A stretch of DNA of 32,000 nt from Alkalinema sp. FACHB-956 (GCF_014697025.1 NZ_JACJRC010000019.1:69081-101080), one strand, 5' to 3'. Shown: positions 11,237-24,239, counted from the first letter of the stretch. Numbers and translations: made by a program. Notes: generated from the sequence alone by a model not told the origin.

Positions 11237-11286
11237 TTGCAAGAATTTACGTAAATTCTCTACTTTTTTCCAGCACAGCGATCGGC

Positions 11287-12381
11287 TTACCAGGGACAGG
11301 TTGACGGATCGGCGCTACATCCCATGCGCTGAATGGTATTCTGCTCAAATTGGTCAATGGCTAGGGTCGGCGTGTCATTGTTCAGAAAACGTCCGGTGAG
11401 GAGTAGGACGGTTAAAGGATCCGCCAGTCCTGTTGCTTTGAGTTTGACGGTGCTTTGGAAGCTGCGAATGCCGTCAGCATCGGGGCTAAATCCTAGTTTC
11501 TTCAGAGAGCGATCGATCTGGGACTGGGTTAGTACAACTTCATTGGGCCGAAAGATGGGGACATACTCCTGTCGCCAGCGCGATTGGAGTTCCTCCTGCG
11601 TCCAACTGTAATAGCGGCCTTGGGCGGGATCGGCAACAACGACATGATCCTGATCCATTGCCATCAGGGCAACGGCATGGGGTAATCTGCGCCACCCTGC
11701 CCCTAGCCAGACGGATAACAAACCGGGGCGATTAATCTTCCAGAGCTGCTCCCAGGTGGCTTGGGTGACTTCCAATCCCGTTAGCCCAAAGCCTTGGGCG
11801 GCTTTGATCACCTGCGGATTGGACGTTCCCATACGACTGGTTCCGGCCAGTTGCGCCACTTTGGATTCCGTGGCTTGGGTCATCCCCCAGCGTTGCAGCA
11901 AGGTGGCCAAGGCAGAGGGAGCACAGCTACTGGCAGAGGTTTGCTTAAAAACCTGATTGGGCCGCAGGTTGTTTTTCAGTTCGCCATAGATCGGTGACAG
12001 GTAGTAGGATTCCACCACGGTAAAACTGATTAAGCCGATTAAGCTCACAGCAACGATCGCGCCCAATTGGACCCGTGCGGTTTTCCAGCTAATGGCGATC
12101 GCAAAGCCACAGGCTCCGATTAACAAAACTCGGATCATCAGCCAAGTAATCCGCATTCCCACCACGCGCCAATCCAACGGGAAAAATTGCATCTGCGGCA
12201 AATTCACTGCCAGAAATAGCAACAACCCATAGATCAGAATAATGATCCAGGTTTGCCATTCCTGTCCCTTGAGCAAGTCGTTAGCCGTTGCCCCACGACG
12301 CAACATCAACTGGCCGAGGCGCGTGCCCCCATAAAAAAATACGGCTCCCAACGCTAGCGTGGCCGGAACAATCCACAGCAT
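11287..12381 (-). CDS. Membrane-anchored peptidase C39-like cysteine protease with a C-terminal PG-binding-like domain
   Basis: The N-terminal ~140 aa are hydrophobic. SASSCAPSALATLLQRWG supplies the C39-like Cys and HAVALMAMDQDHVVVADP the His. The C-terminus, LKKLGFSPDADGIRSFQSTVKLKATGLADP, resembles PG_binding_1. Confidence 0.7.
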   Translation of the reverse strand: MLWIVPATLALGAVFFYGGTRLGQLMLRRGATANDLLKGQEWQTWIIILIYGLLLFLAVNLPQMQFFPLDWRVVGMRITWLMIRVLLIGACGFAIAISWKTARVQLGAIVAVSLIGLISFTVVESYYLSPIYGELKNNLRPNQVFKQTSASSCAPSALATLLQRWGMTQATESKVAQLAGTSRMGTSNPQVIKAAQGFGLTGLEVTQATWEQLWKINRPGLLSVWLGAGWRRLPHAVALMAMDQDHVVVADPAQGRYYSWTQEELQSRWRQEYVPIFRPNEVVLTQSQIDRSLKKLGFSPDADGIRSFQSTVKLKATGLADPLTVLLLTGRFLNNDTPTLAIDQFEQNTIQRMGCSADPSTCPW

Positions 12382-17546: not shown

Positions 17547-17644
17547 AGGCAAGAACAGGCCAGCTCACGGAGGGAGAGTCCGTCATGCCGAACGATCGCC
17601 GATTTGGGTAGGATGGTTGAGAGACATTTGCATGGTTGAACGGT

Positions 17645-19039
17645 ATGGCTGATCTATCTTTAGACGCAATTCGGACAGAAGCCCTTGAACACATCGCTGC
17701 CGGAGCCTACGATCGCGCCATTACGCTCCTCTCAGAGACGATCGCCCATCAACCACCCAACAGCCAAATCTATCTCACCCGAGGTTCCGCCTACTGCGAC
17801 CTAGGCCGCTACGACGACGCGATCGCTGATTTTACCCATGTCCTACAAATCGGTGACGAACCCGCCTTCGCCCACCGGGGTCTAGGCATTGCCTACTACA
17901 AATTAGGCCGATTCCACGATGCGATCGCGGCCCAAACCGAGGCCATTCGCCATAACCCCAACTACGCCGATGCCTATAGTGATCGGGGCCTTGTCCATTC
18001 TGACCTAGGCGAATTTGATACGGCGATCGCTGACCTCAGCCAAGCGATCGTCTGCGATCCCAACTTTGATATTGCTTACGTAAACCGAGGCCGTGCCTAT
18101 GCCAGCGTAGGCGATTTACAACGGGCGTTACTCGATTTCAACCAAGCCATTCTCCTCAACAATCAATTTGCTGTTGCCTATTACAATCGCGGTCGTGTTT
18201 ATCGGGATATGCGCGAATTTAGCAAAGCTCTCACCGATTTCGACCAAGCCCTTACCCTGCAAAACAACCTCGCCCCCGCCCACCTAGAGCGCGGAAAACT
18301 CTACGAACATCGCCGCGACACCGCCAAAGCCTTCCAGGACTACACCGCCGCTTTGACTCTCAGCCCCACCTTCGCGGAAGCATATCTCTGTCGAGGCAAC
18401 CTCTACGCCAAATCGGGAGATCTCTCTGCCGCGATCGCTGATTACACCCAAGGGCTCATCCATCAACCGCAATCGGCAGCACTCTATTTTAATCGCGGAT
18501 TGGCTTATCACTATCTCAGAAACTGGAATGAAGCCCTGCAAGATTACAACCAAGCGATCACGATCGACGCAGATAATGCAATGGTTTATTTAAATCTAGG
18601 AATTACCCAAGCGGCTCAAGGCAATCATCATGGCGCAATCGCATCGTTCAATCAAACCATTCAACTCGACCCCGGTCTGGCAGAAGCTTACTATTGTCGA
18701 GGACTGGCCCAGGGTCAACATCAAAATTTTCAAGCGGAAATCGACGACTACACCCAAACCTTACAGCTCGAACCCACCTATTTACCCGCTTGGATTAATC
18801 GCGGCAATGCCCACTTTCGGCAGGCACGCTACGAAGTGGCCCTCGCGGACTATCAACAGGCCAGTCGGCTAGCCCCCAACGATGCCCTTGCCTATGCCAA
18901 CCAAGGCCGTGCCCTAACGCAATTGGGCGATCGCGCCACCGCAAAAGATCAATTCCAACTCGCCGCCCAACTGGCTTTTAAACAAAATAATTTGGCGCTC
19001 CACCGTCAAATTCTCCAGGAACTCCAGCAACTGTCGTGA
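17645..19039 (+). CDS. Tetratricopeptide-repeat protein (about 12 TPR units)
   Basis: The 34-aa periodicity is regular, with the A..Y..RG.aY..lG.y..Ai.D...Al.l.P signature repeated throughout. ATG at 17645 is preferred over TTG at 17636. Confidence 0.9.
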   Translation: MADLSLDAIRTEALEHIAAGAYDRAITLLSETIAHQPPNSQIYLTRGSAYCDLGRYDDAIADFTHVLQIGDEPAFAHRGLGIAYYKLGRFHDAIAAQTEAIRHNPNYADAYSDRGLVHSDLGEFDTAIADLSQAIVCDPNFDIAYVNRGRAYASVGDLQRALLDFNQAILLNNQFAVAYYNRGRVYRDMREFSKALTDFDQALTLQNNLAPAHLERGKLYEHRRDTAKAFQDYTAALTLSPTFAEAYLCRGNLYAKSGDLSAAIADYTQGLIHQPQSAALYFNRGLAYHYLRNWNEALQDYNQAITIDADNAMVYLNLGITQAAQGNHHGAIASFNQTIQLDPGLAEAYYCRGLAQGQHQNFQAEIDDYTQTLQLEPTYLPAWINRGNAHFRQARYEVALADYQQASRLAPNDALAYANQGRALTQLGDRATAKDQFQLAAQLAFKQNNLALHRQILQELQQLS

Positions 19040-19088: not shown

Positions 19089-19757
19089 GTGGCCAGTTTG
19101 CAATTCAAGTTGAAGTTATTTCGACGACGGGAAATTTGGTGTCCGACCTGGCGAGGTTGGCTCTTGCTGGGAGTGCTCTTGCTGGGGTTAGGGCTGGGGG
19201 TTGTGCCGCGAATTCATCCGTTTTTTGCTGTGACTGCGCCGATTTCAGCGGAGGCGTTGGTCGTGGAGGGGTGGATGGATGATGAGGCCGTTATCCAGGC
19301 GATCGCGGAATTCAAATCCCATCCCTACCAATTGTTGATTACAACGGGTTCTCCACTGCCGAAAGGCTTTTATTTAGCGCAATATCAAAACTTTGCGGAA
19401 TTATCGAAGGCTACCTTAATTCAAAGGGGATTTCCGGTCGATCGTATTGTTGCAGTTCCTGCGCCTTTTGTGATCAAAAATCGTACCTATACTGCTGCTC
19501 TCTCCGTTAAACAATGGTTGGAAAGAACTCAATCTTCCATTCGTGCAATCAACATTTTTACAACGGGAGCCCATGCGCGTCGCAGTTGGATGCTCTATCG
19601 CAGGGCGCTGGAACCGCAGTTTCAAGTGGGGGTGATTGCAACGCCACCACAAACCTATGAAGTCGATCGATGGTGGGCCAGTAGTGAAGGGGTGAAAATG
19701 GTGATCTTTGAGGCTTTAGGGTGGTTCTATGTCCAGGTGTTTAATCGGTTGGATTAG
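19089..19757 (+). CDS. DUF218 (YdcF/ElyC/SanA-like) family protein
   Basis: GTG start and an N-terminal TM segment. ALVVEGWMDDEAV, LLITTG and IFTTGAHARRS fit the DUF218 pattern as I recall it. Confidence 0.65.
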   Translation: MASLQFKLKLFRRREIWCPTWRGWLLLGVLLLGLGLGVVPRIHPFFAVTAPISAEALVVEGWMDDEAVIQAIAEFKSHPYQLLITTGSPLPKGFYLAQYQNFAELSKATLIQRGFPVDRIVAVPAPFVIKNRTYTAALSVKQWLERTQSSIRAINIFTTGAHARRSWMLYRRALEPQFQVGVIATPPQTYEVDRWWASSEGVKMVIFEALGWFYVQVFNRLD

Positions 19758-19783: not shown

Positions 19784-19864
19784 GAGAAGGTGAATTTGTT
19801 GGTCTTTGATGCAAAACAGGAGGTTGTGGTGCAGTGGATCGAGTCAATGAGTATCGAACCATAA
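19784..19864 (+). pseudogene. xisH: 3' remnant (about 20 codons) of a xisH gene overlapping the xisI start
   Basis: The frame reads ..EKVNLLVFDAKQEVVVQWIESMSIEP*. It aligns without gaps to the C-terminus of the intact XisH in this window (GVKLLIYNPIEEEIVLWKD*). It overlaps the xisI start as xisH-xisI pairs do. The rest of xisH is missing and the DUF218 stop lies at 19757. Confidence 0.4.
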
Positions 19865-20175
19865 TTCAGCGGGTGATGGCTGATTATTACCAGCTTTATT
19901 CCCGATCGAAGAATCCAGATTTAGAGACGTTGTTGTTGTGTGATGGGTCGCAGGATCAGTATTTGTTGATGCGGTTGGGCTGGGAGGGCGATCGGCGGGT
20001 GAATCGGAATGTGATTCATTTGCGGTTGCGGGATGGCAAGGTGTGGGTGGAGGAGGATTGGACGGAGCAGGGGGTGGCGACGGATCTGTTGGCGGCAGGG
20101 GTGGAGCGAGAGGCGATCGTGCTGGGGTTTCAGCCTCCTCATGTGAGAGAGTTTACGGAGTTTGCGGCGGTTTAA
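19834..20175 (+). CDS. xisI: XisI (fdxN-element excision controlling factor I family)
   Basis: 113 aa, GTG start. YRTIIQRVMADY, LLMRLGWEGDRRV, HLRLRDGKVWVEEDWTE and IVLGFQPP match the XisI family and the second XisI copy at 24477-24812. Confidence 0.85.
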   Translation: MDRVNEYRTIIQRVMADYYQLYSRSKNPDLETLLLCDGSQDQYLLMRLGWEGDRRVNRNVIHLRLRDGKVWVEEDWTEQGVATDLLAAGVEREAIVLGFQPPHVREFTEFAAV

Positions 20176-20262
20176 GGTTCGATCATTTTGGTGGGTGGAA
20201 GGTTTTGGGATTCAGGTGTTAAACTCTAGCAGATAATGCTTCTCTGCTGGAGTTTTTAGGCC

Positions 20263-20745
20263 ATGGTGGTCGATCGTTTGGCGGATATTCATGCTGCGTT
20301 GACGGATCTTTATGAGCAGCTTGCGGGTGAGGAACGCGCATGGCGGTTGGCAGAGGAGGCGGAGAAATCTAGGCTTCAGCAGAAGATTCGGTTAACTTGG
20401 CAGAGAATTCGTGAGTACGATCGCGAATATGTTTTAACTTTGAGCAAGCGGGTGAAACGGGCGGATTTGCCGGAGCCGATCGCGGAGGCGGTGATGGCTG
20501 AGTTTGTGGATGAGCTGGAAGTTCTGGCTCCCATGGAGAAGCGGGATGAGACGAAGCAGCTTTTGTTGGAGATTTTAGCGGAGTTGAGGAAGCCGGGGGT
20601 GCCTGCTTCGGCGAAATTAAAGGTGGCGATTCCGATTATCCCGAATGTGGTGAGTTATGAGCTGGAGGGGGATACGGAGAGTGTGGTGCGGCGGCTGTTT
20701 CCGACGTTTGTGAAGGTGTACGAGGCGATCGCGGCAAAAAAGTAG
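20263..20745 (+). CDS. 160-aa coiled-coil protein with a C-terminal hydrophobic segment (SAKLKVAIPIIPNVVSYELEGDTES); candidate adaptor/effector partner or N-terminal module of the downstream STAND NTPase
   Basis: ATG start. About 110 aa are charged and heptad-rich (EERAWRLAEEAEKSRLQQKIRLTWQRIREYDREY..), followed by a short hydrophobic motif. It has the same G3/T3 codon regime as the NB-ARC 5' half. It ends GCA AAA AAG TAG. Confidence 0.7.
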   Translation: MVVDRLADIHAALTDLYEQLAGEERAWRLAEEAEKSRLQQKIRLTWQRIREYDREYVLTLSKRVKRADLPEPIAEAVMAEFVDELEVLAPMEKRDETKQLLLEILAELRKPGVPASAKLKVAIPIIPNVVSYELEGDTESVVRRLFPTFVKVYEAIAAKK

Positions 20746-20779
20746 CGGCTCTTGGTGCAGGGAGTTCTGAGCCAGGAGC
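20722..20779 (+). promoter_or_regulatory. Candidate -1 ribosomal frameshift cassette: SD-like GAGG, slippery A_AAA_AAG, spacer, stem-loop
   Basis: GAGG lies at 20722-20725. The heptamer A AAA AAG lies at 20736-20742 in the zero-frame X_XXY_YYZ register. TAG lies at 20743-20745. An 8-bp stem pairs 20748-20755 with 20772-20779 (one G-U pair), starting 5 nt after the heptamer. The -1 frame is open from 20661 to 24239. Confidence 0.35.
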
Positions 20780-20828
20780 GCCATCAAAGTCAAGTCTGAA
20801 GCCGAGTGCGCTGAGGCTACCAGTACAA

Positions 20829-23800
20829 TTGCCGGAGAATTTTGTGAAGCGGCCTGAGGCGCTGGCGGCAGTGAAGGAACTGCTGCTACGGGAGAGTGAG
20901 CGGACGTTGGTGGTGAGCGCGATCGCGGGGTTGGGTGGCCTTGGAAAGTCGGTGTTGGCGACGGCGATCGTGTGGGATGACGAGGTGCAGGCGCGGTTTG
21001 CGGATGGGATTTTGTGGGTGACGTTGGGGCAGCAGCCGGATTTGTTATGGGAGCTTGGGGAGTGGATTCGGGCGTTGGATAAGTCGCGGGAGAGTTGGAG
21101 TGCGACGACGCTGGAGTCGGCGAGGAGGTATTTGCATAGTCTGCTAGTGGATAAGCGGGTATTGCTGGTGGTGGATGATGTATGGAATGCGGCTCATGCC
21201 AAGTGGTTTTGGGTGGGTGGGCCTGAGTGTCGGGTGTTGGTGACGACGCGGGGGGTTCCAATTATTGGGGCGGAGCGATATGACTTAGATGTGATGTCGC
21301 CAGAGGATTCACTGACATTGATTCGGAAGACGTTAGCGGATAAATGGCAGGTGGAGATGGAGCAGCCTGCGTTAGAGTTTGCAGAGATGCTGGGACACTT
21401 ACCTTTGGCGTTACGGTTGATGGCGCTTCAGATTAGTCGTGGGAAAAGGTGGGAGTCGCTAAAGCAGGCATTTTTGAAGGAACGGTTGCGGTGTTTGTAT
21501 GAGGCTGGGGTACGGTTGTCAGATTTGTCTGAACAGGAACAGCGCCAATGCAGTTTAGCGGCTTGTTTTGAGGTGAGTTTGGCAAGGTTACGGGAGGACG
21601 ATCCGGCGCTATATGAGCAATTTGTGTGGTTGGGGGTGTTACCGGAGGATGTGACGATTCAAGAACAGATGGCAGTGACGTTGTGGGGTGTGGAAGATTG
21701 GGAGGCAGAGGAGTCGCTGTTGAGTTTGTATGAGCAGGCGTTTCTGATGAGAGCGGGGGAGTCAGTTGAGGGATATGCACTGTATCGGATGCATGATTTG
21801 ATGCATGCTACGGCGCAGGGGTTGATTGAGTCAGGATGTTTAGCGGGTGTAGAGAGTTTGGCTGCGGCGCATCGATCGTTTGTGGGACGGTATGGCAAAT
21901 TGAATGCGGAAGCTTATTTGTTTGGGTTGCCGAAGGATGGTTATATTCATCGGCATCTGACGTGGCATTTGGTGATGGCGGGGCGGGAGGATACGGTTCA
22001 TCGATTGCTGCAACGGAGTAATCGATTGGGGCGAAATGCTTGGTTTGAGGCTTGTGAGGAGATTGGGGAGCCTGCGATTTTTGTGCAGGATGTGCAGCGG
22101 GGTTGGGAGTTGGCGGAGGCGTTGTATGAGCGGGATAATGCAAAAGCAATTATTTTACAGATAAGATATGTACTAATTTTTACAACCCTAAACAGTCTAC
22201 TAAATCACATTCCGGATGAATTAATTGCCGCCCTAGTAAAGCATGGCTATTGGCAAGTGGAAAAAGGATTAGCCTACGCAGAGAATATTCCGGAAAACTG
22301 GCATCGTGGTAATACCATTATTGAATTAGTTCCTTATTTATCTCAGACTCTTGCCATCAAGTCGATCAATATTGCTCAGGAAATTGATGATGATTCCATT
22401 CGAGAAAATGTTCTTCAGGCTATAGCCCGAAAGTTCCCCGAATTGCTTCCTAATATTCAGCTTAATAAAAGTGATTTTCCTGACAAAGAAGTAAACATTT
22501 TAGAACATCTTCAAATAGATACATCTGATGGTAGTCAATTAGCAGCTTTAGAGAAAATCCAAATAATAGTAGATGAAGAGGATAAGTGCAAAGCAATATG
22601 TGAAATAGCGCCTAAGTTAAAGGAAGAATTTCTTGAAAAAGCAGTTAGTATTGCATATTCAATCGAGCATTTGGAATTACACATCAAAGCTCTATGCCGT
22701 ATAGGAAAACATATCCCAAAAATTTATCCCGATCTATATAGTAGAATATTATCACTAGAGCCAGAGGATCCATCTCTTGGCAGTGGAGAGGATTTTGCAT
22801 TGATTCTTTGCCACGCAATTTCAATTTTTCCTGAACTAGCTCAAAAGGCTTTAGAGTGGTCATCCAACTATCTAACTGATGAATTTATGCCATGGGCTGT
22901 ACGCAAAATAGCACCTCATATCGATGAGGATGATTTATTGTATGAAGCCTTAGACTATATATTTTCTGAACGGGATGAATATTATTATTCAGATGGTCTT
23001 GCAGCACTCTCCCCATACCTTTCTCCTGAATATATTACTATTGCCTTTAATAGAGCACAATTGATTCATGATCCTGGCAGTCGTATAGCAGCACTTAATG
23101 CTTTAGTATCCTATTTACCTTTTGAGAAGCTTGAAAGCTTTCTTTCCACTTCAAAACAGATCAGTGATCAATATGAATATTGTTATGCAATCGCCTATTT
23201 CTCTCGAAAATATCCTGTGCTACACAATCACATGATTGAGATATTAAAGACTATAGAAAATGAATTAGATTGTATAAATACACTATTTTTACTTGCAAAA
23301 TATCTCCCTATTCAATACTTGTCGCAGATTCGTGGATTCATTGAAAAAGTCCATGAAGAATACGAATACTTTTCTCTTTTAATCCTGCTAGCAGCAAAAG
23401 ATTCTTCACTATTGCAAGACATTATAAGAGAGTCAAAATATCTCGACAATGATGATTATGCAGGCATTATGGTTCAACTAGCAGAGTTAATGCCTGAAAA
23501 AAACAATGAAGCACTTAAGGCTGTTAAAAAAATAAAAAATGGTTATAGGAAGAAACTTCTTTTAAAAAGATTGCTCCCCTGCTTGAGTAGAAAACAGCTT
23601 TTATCTTTATATAACCGAACGAAAAAAGGTGTTGTTGATGAAGATGATATAGAGATGCTCATTGAGATTGTCAACTTTTTACCAGAAAAGGCAGAAGATT
23701 TATTGGAAAAAATACGAATGAGTTTCGGGCAGAAAACTGAATGGAATTGGTTGGTTGAGCTAGCTAAATTTCTTCCAGATTTGTGTTTAGAAACCTTAGA

Positions 23801-24239
23801 AAAATGTGCCGAACCTTCAGAAATTCTTTCGCAAAGCGATACTTTGATAATTTATATGACTGCCTTTCCTGATTCTCTACCTTATGTAATGGAAAAATTT
23901 CCACAAGTTCGATGGGATAAGCTCAATATGTTTAATTTAATAGCTTTAGCGAAATCTCTTAAAGCTGAATTCCTGCCAGATGCTATAACCGCCATCAAGA
24001 AACTGAGTAATCCACAAGAGAGAGCAGATGCTTACAGCAACTATCTCTCTCGCCTATCTTGGCAGAGTATGTCTTATGAAGAGTGGAAAGATATATTAAA
24101 AATATTGTCATCGAGCGAACGTGCATCCTTCCTAAAAGCCTTGCCAGATCTTACACCTGGTATTAAGACTTTTGGTGGAGAACACGTAGTAGAGGATGTG
24201 ATATTGACCTTGCGTGAAGTTTATAGCCAATGGCCTTAA
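20829..24239 (+). CDS. NB-ARC (AP-ATPase/STAND) NTPase with a C-terminal helical-repeat (HEAT/ARM-like) sensor region
   Basis: The NB-ARC signature is complete: Walker A GLGGLGKS (aa 34-41), VLLVVDDVW (aa 111-119), RVLVTTR (aa 135-141) and GHLPLAL (aa 189-195). From about aa 440 on there are repeated units of the type ..L..LA..LP....L..AL..I.. The protein ends GGEHVVEDVILTLREVYSQWP. There is no ATG start: TTG at 20829, or GTG at 20844 with GGAG 7 nt upstream. No effector domain precedes the NOD. Confidence 0.9.
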   Translation: MPENFVKRPEALAAVKELLLRESERTLVVSAIAGLGGLGKSVLATAIVWDDEVQARFADGILWVTLGQQPDLLWELGEWIRALDKSRESWSATTLESARRYLHSLLVDKRVLLVVDDVWNAAHAKWFWVGGPECRVLVTTRGVPIIGAERYDLDVMSPEDSLTLIRKTLADKWQVEMEQPALEFAEMLGHLPLALRLMALQISRGKRWESLKQAFLKERLRCLYEAGVRLSDLSEQEQRQCSLAACFEVSLARLREDDPALYEQFVWLGVLPEDVTIQEQMAVTLWGVEDWEAEESLLSLYEQAFLMRAGESVEGYALYRMHDLMHATAQGLIESGCLAGVESLAAAHRSFVGRYGKLNAEAYLFGLPKDGYIHRHLTWHLVMAGREDTVHRLLQRSNRLGRNAWFEACEEIGEPAIFVQDVQRGWELAEALYERDNAKAIILQIRYVLIFTTLNSLLNHIPDELIAALVKHGYWQVEKGLAYAENIPENWHRGNTIIELVPYLSQTLAIKSINIAQEIDDDSIRENVLQAIARKFPELLPNIQLNKSDFPDKEVNILEHLQIDTSDGSQLAALEKIQIIVDEEDKCKAICEIAPKLKEEFLEKAVSIAYSIEHLELHIKALCRIGKHIPKIYPDLYSRILSLEPEDPSLGSGEDFALILCHAISIFPELAQKALEWSSNYLTDEFMPWAVRKIAPHIDEDDLLYEALDYIFSERDEYYYSDGLAALSPYLSPEYITIAFNRAQLIHDPGSRIAALNALVSYLPFEKLESFLSTSKQISDQYEYCYAIAYFSRKYPVLHNHMIEILKTIENELDCINTLFLLAKYLPIQYLSQIRGFIEKVHEEYEYFSLLILLAAKDSSLLQDIIRESKYLDNDDYAGIMVQLAELMPEKNNEALKAVKKIKNGYRKKLLLKRLLPCLSRKQLLSLYNRTKKGVVDEDDIEMLIEIVNFLPEKAEDLLEKIRMSFGQKTEWNWLVELAKFLPDLCLETLEKCAEPSEILSQSDTLIIYMTAFPDSLPYVMEKFPQVRWDKLNMFNLIALAKSLKAEFLPDAITAIKKLSNPQERADAYSNYLSRLSWQSMSYEEWKDILKILSSSERASFLKALPDLTPGIKTFGGEHVVEDVILTLREVYSQWP

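What the first reader, a model, noticed from the sequence alone, without database searches (positions are those of the whole stretch)
20661..20850. A dnaX-type A_AAA_AAG slippery site with a stem-loop could fuse the 160-aa coiled-coil ORF to the NB-ARC NTPase
Seen directly:
- ORF 20263-20745 ends GCA AAA AAG TAG. This places the heptamer A AAA AAG (20736-20742) in the exact X_XXY_YYZ register.
- The -1 frame has no stop from 20661 to 24239. After a -1 slip it reads ..AIAAKK-VAALGAGSSEPGAPSKSSLKPSALRLPVQ-LPENFVKRPEAL.. That is a Gly/Ser/Pro linker running straight into the NB-ARC domain.
- A GAGG lies 10 nt upstream (20722-20725).
- An 8-bp stem (20748-20755 with 20772-20779) starts 5 nt downstream.
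- The NB-ARC ORF has no ATG start and no N-terminal effector domain of its own.
Established knowledge: A_AAA_AAG plus an upstream SD-like element and a downstream hairpin is the E. coli dnaX -1 frameshift cassette.
Inference: the locus may produce both a free 160-aa protein and an N-domain-STAND fusion of about 1325 aa. Alternatively, the A6 run may be a 1-nt contraction of A7, through phase variation, a pseudogenising mutation or a homopolymer sequencing error.
Basis: partly seen in the sequence, partly recalled or inferred. Interest (0 to 1): 0.8.

Follow-up and report, generated by a model that had tools for sequence, protein, structure and literature searches.

The report
Conserved frameshift site joining adaptor to NLR-like NTPase
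A small helical protein gene in a cyanobacterium ends in a slippery A_AAA_AAG sequence, a stop codon and an RNA hairpin, all conserved across many cyanobacteria, so some ribosomes probably slip back one base and make a second, long protein in which the small protein is fused to an NLR-like immune-type NTPase.

Summary
ORF 20263-20745 ends GCA AAA AAG TAG, and the -1 frame is open from 20661 to 24239 and encodes an NB-ARC STAND NTPase. A hairpin follows 5-6 nt after the heptamer.

Comparison with 30 non-redundant related loci supports a programmed -1 frameshift:
- About 100 of 120 close homologues of the 160-aa protein end in KK or GK, sometimes plus one residue, after a tail that varies in length and sequence.
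- At DNA level this ending is always A_AAA_AAG or G_GGA_AAG in register. The preceding codon ends in the matching base although its amino acid varies.
- A stop follows at once, and the hairpin shows compensatory base changes.
- The -1 frame often opens only 9-24 nt upstream and runs into long ORFs of different kinds (NB-ARC, NACHT, TPR).
- Linker codons upstream of any start codon evolve as coding sequence.
- Distant relatives carry the same two parts as one in-frame protein.
- A predicted case (TIR plus this domain) showed the same cassette.

The upstream GAGG is not conserved. I found no prior report. No experiment shows the fusion product, and its efficiency is unknown. Sequencing error, pseudogene and phase variation are effectively excluded.

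The parts
20263..20745 (+). Upstream ORF: a 160-aa all-helical N-domain protein, the zero-frame (termination) product.
   Evidence: It has no Pfam, NCBIfam or PADLOC hit. It has 146 close homologues, nearly all 157-182 aa. The AlphaFold2 model has pLDDT 85 and six helices, with no significant PDB fold match.
20722..20725 (+). SD-like GAGG, 10 nt upstream of the heptamer. It is a possible local stimulator but is not conserved family-wide.
   Evidence: The same 10-nt spacing occurs in L001, L009, L024 and L030. Spacing is 7 nt in L005, 13 nt in L011, and 0-4 nt or absent elsewhere. The GAGG is part of the conserved YE[AG] codons.
20736..20742 (+). Slippery heptamer A_AAA_AAG in the zero-frame register.
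   Evidence: Columns 7-12 of alignment A2 are invariant and column 6 is at least 90% conserved. The heptamer is A_AAA_AAG or G_GGA_AAG in 25 of the 27 loci whose site I read at DNA level, and the preceding codon ends in the matching base in 25 of 26.
20743..20745 (+). Zero-frame stop TAG directly 3' of the heptamer. Ribosomes that do not shift terminate here.
   Evidence: The stop follows the heptamer directly in 22 of the 27 loci read at DNA level, and is 1-2 codons later in L004, L006, L007 and L017. In L015 it is 12 nt after an A10 run.
20745..20781 (+). Downstream stimulatory hairpin. The conserved 8-bp core is 20749-20756 paired with 20771-20778. The MFE structure adds a 3-bp base (20745-47 with 20779-81) and an inner helix.
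   Evidence: RNAfold gives -21.1 kcal/mol, z -2.6. In alignment A2, 79.5% of cells are paired against 33-47% for slid controls; 9 of 14 pairs have changes on both sides; 0 of 500 shuffles reach the observed values. RNAalifold gives an 8-bp consensus with 5 compensatory pairs. No T-run follows, so it is not an intrinsic terminator.
20742..20828 (+). Trans-frame linker in the -1 frame (VAALGAGSSEPGAPSKSSLKPSALRLPVQ). It contains no ATG, GTG or TTG.
   Evidence: The 11 codons before LPENFV show pairwise differences of 87, 105 and 301 at codon positions 1, 2 and 3 across 10 loci, so they are translated in the partner frame.
20829..24239 (+). Partner ORF in the -1 frame. It holds the NB-ARC STAND NTPase (domain about 20862-21482, P-loop GLGGLGKS) and a long C-terminal region with no family match.
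   Evidence: Homologous NB-ARC proteins normally carry an in-frame N-terminal EAD4, TIR, caspase or protease domain.
22100..24239 (+). Low-GC (0.32-0.39) C-terminal part of the partner ORF, the presumed sensor region.
   Evidence: No Pfam hit.

Best explanation
The site is a conserved programmed -1 ribosomal frameshift cassette of the dnaX/IS3 type.

Proposed mechanism:
- Ribosomes translating the 160-aa N-domain ORF reach A_AAA_AAG (20736-20742) while the hairpin that starts 5-6 nt downstream is at the mRNA entrance.
- Most ribosomes read the adjacent TAG and release the free N-domain.
- A fraction slips back one base, with tRNA-Lys re-pairing from AAA-AAG to AAA-AAA. These ribosomes read GUA next and continue through a Gly/Ser/Pro linker into the NB-ARC NTPase, making an N-domain-STAND protein of about 1325 aa.

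What is shown: the anatomy of the site, its conservation, the hairpin covariation, the coding constraint on the linker, and natural in-frame equivalents.

What is inferred: that slippage actually occurs, and how efficiently.

Further inference, less certain: the N-domain is an adaptor of the effector-associated kind. Elsewhere it is fused to TIR, caspase, TRADD-N and STAND modules. One coding sequence would therefore supply both the copy attached to the receptor and an excess of free copies, which would associate with it by like-with-like binding when the NTPase oligomerises. In relatives the free copies also carry an effector such as TIR.
For: 1. C-terminal signature. Of 120 close homologues, 59 end in KK, 24 in GK and 17 in [GK]KP, after a tail of variable length and sequence.
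2. DNA level. In the 27 loci whose site I read at DNA level, the ending is A_AAA_AAG or G_GGA_AAG in register in 25. The preceding codon ends in A (encoding A, P, G, R, S or Q) or in G in 25 of 26. In E. coli these are two of the three most efficient heptamers when stimulators are present (PMC4066793).
3. The stop directly follows the heptamer in 22 of 27 loci.
4. An 8-13 bp hairpin starts 5-8 nt after the heptamer in all A_AAA_AAG loci. Compensatory changes support it, and the arm sequences are entirely different in L046.
5. The -1 frame opens only 9-24 nt before the stop in most loci. It runs 400 to over 1300 aa, or off the contig end, in about 20 loci.
6. The partners are of different kinds: NB-ARC, NACHT+HEAT, TPR and nSTAND-like. 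The cassette therefore travels with the N-domain.
7. The window and L027 have no canonical start between the junction and the conserved LKPGxPxPRVR-LPENFV motif. That motif shows a 1:1.2:3.5 codon-position substitution pattern.
8. Natural single-ORF fusions exist. The conceptual trans-frame product of L017 aligns with P0167 in one HSP across the junction (aa 3-753, E 4e-124). The window product aligns over aa 1-237 (E 1e-14).
9. This NB-ARC family normally has an N-terminal effector or adaptor domain in frame.
10. A prediction was tested. A distant TIR+N-domain protein ending in KK (P0150) has GCA AAA AAG TAA, a hairpin at 5 nt and a 727-aa -1 STAND ORF.
Against: - There is no proteomic, ribosome-profiling or reporter evidence for the trans-frame product, and the efficiency is unknown.
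- The SD-like stimulator is not conserved.
- Some family members keep the heptamer and stop but have only short -1 ORFs: L004 132 aa, L007 163 aa, L016 21 aa, L042 141 aa. The cassette may therefore have partners of other kinds, or may persist after partner loss.
- Two loci have the partner in the +1 frame: L022 with A7G and L015 with A10.
- L045 has the imperfect heptamer C_AAA_AAG.
- TTG 20829, with a GAGG 12 nt upstream, could also allow independent initiation of an N-domain-less NTPase.
- The tRNA-Lys gene set of the organism could not be checked.
- The G_GGA_AAG clade lacks a clearly supported common hairpin.
Confidence: 0.8

Rival explanations
1. These are two ordinary, separately initiated genes. 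The NB-ARC protein starts on its own at TTG 20829 or GTG 20844. The KK-stop ending and the hairpin serve another purpose, such as a C-terminal protein motif, mRNA stability or an RNase site.
For: Gene callers annotate separate genes with starts 39-144 nt downstream. A GAGG lies 12 nt before TTG 20829. Some loci have ATG, GTG or TTG codons in the linker.
Against: - The candidate starts are not conserved in position or kind.
- TTG 20829 is the conserved Leu of LPENFV.
- Linker codons upstream of it are under coding constraint, and the window and L027 have no start before them.
- Synonymous-site conservation of the full heptamer, including the third base of the variable preceding codon, is not explained by a protein motif.
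- In-frame fusions exist in relatives.
- This NB-ARC family normally has an N-terminal domain.
Confidence: 0.07
2. The genes are coupled by termination-reinitiation. Ribosomes terminate at TAG and restart nearby in the -1 frame, as with overlapping stop/start codons. This gives coupled but unfused proteins.
For: In L001, L009 and L024 a GTG overlaps the stop (TAGTG), and one gene caller used it. The two ORFs are tightly juxtaposed everywhere.
Against: There is no start codon at or near the stop in the window (GUA GCG GCU) or in most loci. Reinitiation explains neither the heptamer register nor the G_GGA_AAG substitution. Single-ORF fusions in relatives argue for a fused product.
Confidence: 0.05
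3. The frame change happens at nucleic-acid level. Either RNA polymerase slips on the A-run (transcriptional slippage), or the A6/A7 run phase-varies in the DNA.
For: A-runs are classic slippage sites. A few relatives have long runs: A9 in L007, A10 in L015 and L020, A7 in L022. Polymerase slippage is plausible there, and in L015 and L022 the partner is in the +1 frame.
Against: A6 is shorter than the runs of 8 or more A known to give efficient transcriptional slippage (stated in PMC3711429). The G_GGA_AAG clade has only three A. The conserved, covarying hairpin at 5-6 nt and the strict codon register are features of ribosomal frameshifting. No A7 in-frame allele appears among 146 close homologues from many assemblies.
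Confidence: 0.04
4. It is an artefact or decay: a homopolymer sequencing error, or a recent pseudogenising 1-nt deletion in a once-fused gene.
For: A single window cannot exclude this. L014 looks broken when compared with the near-identical L036.
Against: The same configuration recurs in dozens of independent genomes and metagenomes at 50-93% protein identity, with the heptamer, stop and stem all conserved.
Confidence: 0.02

Closest known systems
IS3-family (for example IS911, IS3) orfA/orfAB -1 frameshift
   Same: A short upstream ORF ends just after A_AAA_AAG (or G_GGA_AAG in some IS elements). A long -1 ORF lacks a dependable start of its own. A downstream hairpin or pseudoknot acts as stimulator. 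There are two products that share an N-terminus, a small one and a fusion.
   Different: This locus is not a mobile element and encodes no transposase. The partner is a STAND NTPase of variable kind. The stop is directly adjacent to the heptamer. The upstream SD is not conserved.
E. coli dnaX tau/gamma frameshift
   Same: The heptamer is A_AAA_AAG, a hairpin follows 5-6 nt downstream, and in this window a GAGG lies 10 nt upstream as in dnaX.
   Different: In dnaX the frameshift gives the shorter product and the zero frame gives the longer one. Here the frameshift gives the longer product. There is no Rfam match to any frameshift element. The SD is not conserved across the family.
Phage tail assembly chaperone G/GT, and the carboxysome CsoS2A/B frameshift
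   Same: -1 PRF sets a fixed ratio of a short and a long protein that share an N-terminal part and act together in an assembly.
   Different: The proteins and slippery sites are unrelated. CsoS2 and G/GT have experimental support, whereas this case has none.
NLR-associated amyloid signalling pairs (BASS/Bell-NLR; fungal HET-S/NWD2)
   Same: An effector or adaptor gene lies immediately upstream of a STAND/NLR gene, and both proteins share a homotypic interaction module. A BASS-like pair lies next to a PRF-type pair in L046.
   Different: There the shared motif is short and is encoded twice, once in each gene. Here a whole 160-aa domain is encoded once and would be shared by recoding. This is functional analogy only, by inference.
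Effector-associated domains (EADs) of bacterial conflict systems (Pfam PF19954-PF19962)
   Same: The N-domain occurs next to TIR, caspase, TRADD-N, Roc-COR, NACHT and nSTAND modules, at the junction between effector and NTPase. Related NB-ARC proteins carry EAD4 at the same position.
   Different: It matches no Pfam EAD model. It is a six-helix domain with no significant solved-structure neighbour. No EAD that I found described is joined by frameshifting.

Membership tests
Programmed -1 ribosomal frameshift cassette (dnaX/IS3 type) | X_XXY_YYZ slippery heptamer in the zero-frame register | tested here: met
   A_AAA_AAG at 20736-20742 with codons GCA AAA AAG. The heptamer is in register in 25 of the 27 loci read at DNA level.
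Programmed -1 ribosomal frameshift cassette (dnaX/IS3 type) | Heptamer conserved beyond what the protein sequence requires (synonymous-site conservation) | tested here: met
   Lys-Lys is always AAA AAG and Gly-Lys is always GGA AAG. The preceding codon ends in A or G respectively although its amino acid varies (A, P, G, R, S, Q). The flanking tail varies in length and sequence.
Programmed -1 ribosomal frameshift cassette (dnaX/IS3 type) | Stimulatory RNA structure about 5-9 nt 3' of the heptamer | tested here: met
   The hairpin starts 5-8 nt downstream in all A_AAA_AAG loci. Covariation: 9 of 14 pairs have double changes, 0 of 500 shuffles reach the observed values, and slid controls pair at 33-47% against 79.5%. 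RNAalifold agrees. Support is only tentative for the G_GGA_AAG clade.
Programmed -1 ribosomal frameshift cassette (dnaX/IS3 type) | Upstream SD-like stimulator at about 10 nt (a dnaX feature that is optional in other cases) | tested here: inconclusive
   GAGG lies 10 nt upstream in the window and four relatives. It is at 0-13 nt or absent in the others, and it coincides with the conserved YE[AG] codons.
Programmed -1 ribosomal frameshift cassette (dnaX/IS3 type) | The -1 ORF is coding from the shift site onward and depends on upstream translation | tested here: met
   The -1 frame opens 9-24 nt before the stop in most loci. The window and L027 have no start codon in the linker. Codon-position differences are 87/105/301.
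Programmed -1 ribosomal frameshift cassette (dnaX/IS3 type) | Trans-frame protein demonstrated (mass spectrometry, reporter or profiling) | not testable with these tools
   No expression data are available. The nearest evidence is single-ORF natural equivalents.
Programmed -1 ribosomal frameshift cassette (dnaX/IS3 type) | AAG decoded by tRNA-Lys(UUU), which favours slippage | not testable with these tools
PMC4066793 notes that a tRNA-Lys(CUU) does not preclude use of such motifs.
STAND NTPase / NB-ARC (NLR-like) proteins | NB-ARC NTPase module with P-loop | tested here: met
   PF00931 with E 1.7e-23 over aa 41-247. There is a weak APAF1_C hit. The P-loop GLGGLGKS is present.
STAND NTPase / NB-ARC (NLR-like) proteins | Tripartite architecture: N-terminal effector or adaptor, NTPase, C-terminal repeat sensor | tested here: inconclusive
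   The N-terminal module is present only through the frameshift. The C-terminal 700 aa have no family match and an unusually low GC.
Named effector-associated domain families (Pfam EAD1-11) | Sequence match to an EAD model | tested here: not met
   The 160-aa protein has no Pfam hit at E<=0.01. Its architectural behaviour is EAD-like, but it is not a member of a named family.
Transcriptional slippage sites | Homopolymer run long enough for polymerase slippage (A of 8-9 or more) | tested here: not met
   The window has A6, and the GK clade has A3. Only L007, L015 and L020 have runs of A9-A10.
Known anti-phage defence systems (PADLOC) | Match to a defence-system protein model | tested here: not met
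   No PADLOC hit for either protein.

The most novel reading that the evidence does not exclude
The N-domain, slippery heptamer, stop and hairpin form a portable recoding module. In filamentous cyanobacteria it would couple a free adaptor or effector protein to many different NLR-like receptors (NB-ARC, NACHT, nSTAND, TPR). Frameshift efficiency would fix the ratio of the receptor-attached copy to the free copies. On activation, the oligomerised receptor would nucleate assembly of the free copies, which in relatives carry TIR. This would be a recoding-based counterpart of CARD/PYD or amyloid-motif signalling, and the first programmed frameshift in an NLR-type system.
Probability: 0.35. Interest if true: 0.9.

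Novelty: new member of a known kind. Interest (0 to 1): 0.8.

Why it matters
- Few chromosomal, non-mobile bacterial genes are known to use programmed -1 frameshifting; dnaX, copA and csoS2 are examples. This would add a whole family spread across cyanobacteria, with a clean evolutionary signature.
- As far as my literature searches show, it would be the first case in STAND/NLR-like genes.
- These loci are currently annotated as a hypothetical small protein followed by an N-terminally truncated NTPase. The real receptor, with its N-terminal module, is therefore missed in databases and domain-architecture surveys.
- A fixed short-to-long product ratio in a receptor/adaptor pair gives a directly testable model of how bacterial NLR-like proteins recruit downstream components.

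Tried and rejected
- Pfam, NCBIfam and PADLOC scans of the 160-aa protein gave no hits.
- A Foldseek search of the AlphaFold2 model against the PDB gave only insignificant helical-bundle matches with E>=0.045.
- An Rfam scan of 20500-21000 found no frameshift element, only chance snoRNA hits.
- A look-up of the window's own protein on encoding contigs found nothing on record, so I could not see how the source genome is annotated.
- The second AAAAAAGTAG in the window (11260-11269, minus strand) is intergenic and was rejected as a second cassette.
- The hairpin is not an intrinsic terminator because no T-run follows it.
- The SD-like element was rejected as a conserved family feature.
- A common hairpin for the G_GGA_AAG clade has only weak support: 5 sequences and mostly one-sided changes.
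- The literature searches found no description of frameshifting in cyanobacterial NB-ARC/STAND genes. The library is incomplete, so this is absence of evidence only.
Full report
**1. Observation**

The window comes from a cyanobacterium. HIP1 (GCGATCGC) is abundant, and the 160-aa protein is 100% identical to a hypothetical protein of Alkalinema sp. FACHB-956.

- ORF 20263-20745 ends GCA AAA AAG TAG, so A_AAA_AAG (20736-20742) is in the X_XXY_YYZ register.
- The -1 frame is open from 20661 to 24239. After a slip it reads KK|VAALGAGSSEPGAPSKSSLKPSALRLPVQLPENFV... into an NB-ARC domain (PF00931, E 1.7e-23).
- GAGG lies 10 nt upstream of the heptamer.
- The 55 nt after the heptamer fold into a hairpin of -21.1 kcal/mol (z -2.6). 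Only 4% of control windows from the same gene are as stable.
- The first in-frame ATG of the partner lies beyond the P-loop. The earliest canonical start is TTG 20829.

**2. The upstream protein is a conserved stand-alone protein with a tell-tale end**

- A search of 5.8 billion proteins gave 146 close homologues. Nearly all are 157-182 aa and none is fused to a long protein.
- After the conserved ...RRLFPTFVK.YE motif, the tail varies in length (2-12 residues) and in sequence. Even so, 59 of 120 end in KK, 24 in GK and 17 in [GK]KP.
- An exhaustive profile search (293 representatives) shows the domain usually alone or at the extreme C-terminus of longer proteins. 43 of the 147 additional representatives listed also end in KK or GK.

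**3. DNA of related loci**

I retrieved 46 loci. They give 31 non-redundant contexts including the window. L008 and L021 are partial matches only, which leaves 29. L046 (point 8) brings the total to 30 related loci. Leaving out L020, which is only 37% identical, and L013, whose contig ends 42 nt after the stop and was not used for these counts, the site could be read at DNA level in 27 loci.

- KK is always AAA AAG preceded by a codon ending in A (GCA, CCA, GGA, CGA, TCA, CAA).
- GK is always GGA AAG preceded by a codon ending in G.
- The full heptamer A_AAA_AAG or G_GGA_AAG is therefore kept in register in 25 of the 27 loci. The exceptions are L045 (C_AAA_AAG) and L015 (A10).
- In E. coli these two heptamers, with C_CCA_AAG, are the most efficient bacterial -1 motifs when a stimulator is present. 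They reach up to 54%, against about 0.3% without one (PMC4066793).
- A stop (TAG or TAA) follows immediately in 22 of the 27 loci. In L004, L006, L007 and L017 one or two codons intervene; in L015 the stop is 12 nt after the A10 run.
- The -1 frame typically opens only 9-24 nt before that stop. It runs for 400 to over 1300 aa, or off the contig, in about 20 loci.
- The partners differ: NB-ARC of the LPENFV type, NB-ARC/TPR of the WVGRD type, NACHT+HEAT, a 410-aa TPR protein, and others. The cassette therefore belongs to the N-domain, not to a particular partner.

**4. RNA structure**

- In every A_AAA_AAG locus a stem of 8-13 bp starts 5-8 nt after the heptamer.
- On a 14-locus alignment (A2) I tested the 14-bp structure:
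  - 79.5% of cells are paired, against 33-47% when the 3' partners are slid by 1-3 columns.
  - 9 pairs have changes on both sides.
  - 0 of 500 column shuffles reach the observed values.
- RNAalifold independently predicts the 8-bp core, with 5 compensatory pairs.
- In the distant locus L046 the arms have a completely different sequence (TCCCACG/CGTGGGA) at the same distance.
- The hairpin has no T-tail, so it is not a terminator.
- For the G_GGA_AAG clade a common structure is only tentative.

**5. Is the linker translated?**

- The window and L027 have no ATG, GTG or TTG between the junction and the conserved LKPGxPxPRVR-LPENFV motif.
- TTG 20829 is itself the conserved Leu of that motif.
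- Across 10 loci the 11 codons before LPENFV differ 87, 105 and 301 times at codon positions 1, 2 and 3. This is the pattern of purifying selection on a translated frame.
- Where start codons do occur in the linker, their position and kind are not conserved.

**6. Natural fusions**

- Distant family members carry the N-domain in frame with nSTAND1 (P0144, 1169 aa), NB-ARC/TPR (P0167, 1315 aa) or TIR (P0263).
- The conceptual trans-frame product of L017 aligns with P0167 in a single HSP across the junction (aa 3-753 against 4-771, E 4e-124).
- The window's trans-frame product aligns over aa 1-237, also across the junction (E 1e-14).

**7. Context of the partner**

NB-ARC proteins 40-65% identical to the window's partner normally carry an in-frame N-terminal EAD4, TIR, caspase or trypsin-like domain. 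A partner with an empty N-terminal slot would be atypical. The frameshift fills it.

**8. A prediction tested**

If the cassette is general, a TIR+N-domain protein ending in KK should be followed by a -1 STAND ORF. P0150 (322 aa) was retrieved and its contig examined. It ends GCA AAA AAG TAA. The -1 frame opens 15 nt upstream and runs 727 aa into an AAA_16/AAA_22+TPR protein, and a hairpin starts 5 nt after the heptamer.

**9. What the N-domain is**

- It has no Pfam, NCBIfam or PADLOC match.
- AlphaFold2 gives a confident six-helix model (pLDDT 85) with no significant PDB neighbour.
- Across the wider family it sits next to TIR/SEFIR, caspase+GUN4, TRADD-N, SNF2, NACHT, LRR-Roc-COR, nSTAND1 and NB-ARC modules.
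- This is the behaviour of the effector-associated adaptor domains of bacterial conflict systems, but it is not a member of a named EAD family.

The functional model is inference. It holds that free copies associate with the receptor-attached copy on oligomerisation. It draws on analogy to CARD/PYD recruitment and to the NLR-associated amyloid motif pairs, one of which lies next to the PRF pair in L046.

**10. Rivals**

- Independent initiation and termination-reinitiation are disfavoured by points 3, 5 and 6.
- Transcriptional slippage or phase variation is disfavoured by the short A6 run, the G_GGA_AAG clade, the codon register and the hairpin.
- Sequencing error or a pseudogene is excluded by recurrence in many independent assemblies.
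- Independent initiation at TTG 20829 may still coexist with frameshifting.

**11. Limits**

- There are no expression data and no estimate of efficiency.
- The tRNA-Lys gene set is unknown.
- The SD-like element is not conserved.
- Several relatives have short -1 partners or none (L004, L007, L016, L042).
- Two loci have the partner in the +1 frame, with longer A-runs (L022, L015).

**12. Novelty**

The mechanism is the well-known dnaX/IS3-type -1 PRF. The gene family and the biological setting appear not to have been described. The setting is an NLR-like STAND receptor whose N-terminal module is attached by recoding, with the cassette shared among different receptors. Four searches found nothing, covering the GeneTack survey, the 2016 recoding review and two recent STAND papers. 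No Rfam element matches.

**Verdict:** this is a real, conserved feature. My confidence that it is a programmed -1 frameshift is about 0.8, and I score interest at 0.8.

Noticed in passing
window 22100-24239: The C-terminal two-thirds of the NB-ARC partner ORF drops to GC 0.32-0.39, against 0.51-0.63 for 20200-22000. It has no Pfam match. It may be a recombined or foreign sensor module. GC skew is also unusually positive (+0.4 to +0.48) over 20000-22000.
   Followed up: partly
L022:5490-5543 (Oculatella sp. FACHB-28) and L015:2030-2060: In these two relatives the long STAND partner is in the +1 (= -2) frame, and the A-run is longer (A7G in L022, A10 in L015). A7 would allow perfect re-pairing after a -2 shift, and A10 could support polymerase slippage. 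Indel errors are the alternative.
   Followed up: partly
L016:5471-5542 / L040 and L041:2674-2745: G_GGA_AAG TAG is followed by a near-perfect 22-bp palindromic hairpin (-35 kcal/mol). In L016 the -1 ORF is only 21 aa. In the variant L041 the -1 frame runs 244 aa with a hydrophobic stretch. These may be orphan or remodelled cassettes.
   Followed up: no
L046:2507-5806: A 144-aa protein ends ..RGWQTKVEGGTAYIGEIHIQGQPD. The adjacent NB-ARC/TPR protein begins with a matching ..RGFQTLVQGGIANIGDHYHL motif. This looks like an NLR-associated amyloid signalling (BASS-type) pair, and it lies directly beside a frameshift-type pair.
   Followed up: partly
L046:9253-10180: A 221-aa TIR protein ends ..GWQINVSGGTVNIGNPPGQP and then TGA. 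The next STAND ORF continues in the same frame after the TGA with no further stop. This could be stop-codon readthrough or coincidence.
   Followed up: no
window 11260-11269 (minus strand): A second exact AAAAAAGTAG lies just after the stop of ORF 11287-12381(-), in intergenic sequence. It is not at the end of an ORF and I judge it to be chance.
   Followed up: yes
window 19834-20175: A XisI-family gene (PF08869, E 6.7e-39) lies immediately upstream of the cassette. DUF218 (19089-19757) and a 10-repeat TPR protein (17636-19039) lie before it. Several related loci have Uma2, PIN, HicAB or reverse-transcriptase genes nearby, which suggests a variable, island-like neighbourhood.
   Followed up: no
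L004:6469-6881, L007:6460-6959, L042:5474-5910: Some family members keep the heptamer and stop, but the -1 ORF is short (132-163 aa). In L007 it is acidic and followed by a hydrophobic segment. The N-domain may also be frameshift-fused to small non-NTPase partners.
   Followed up: no
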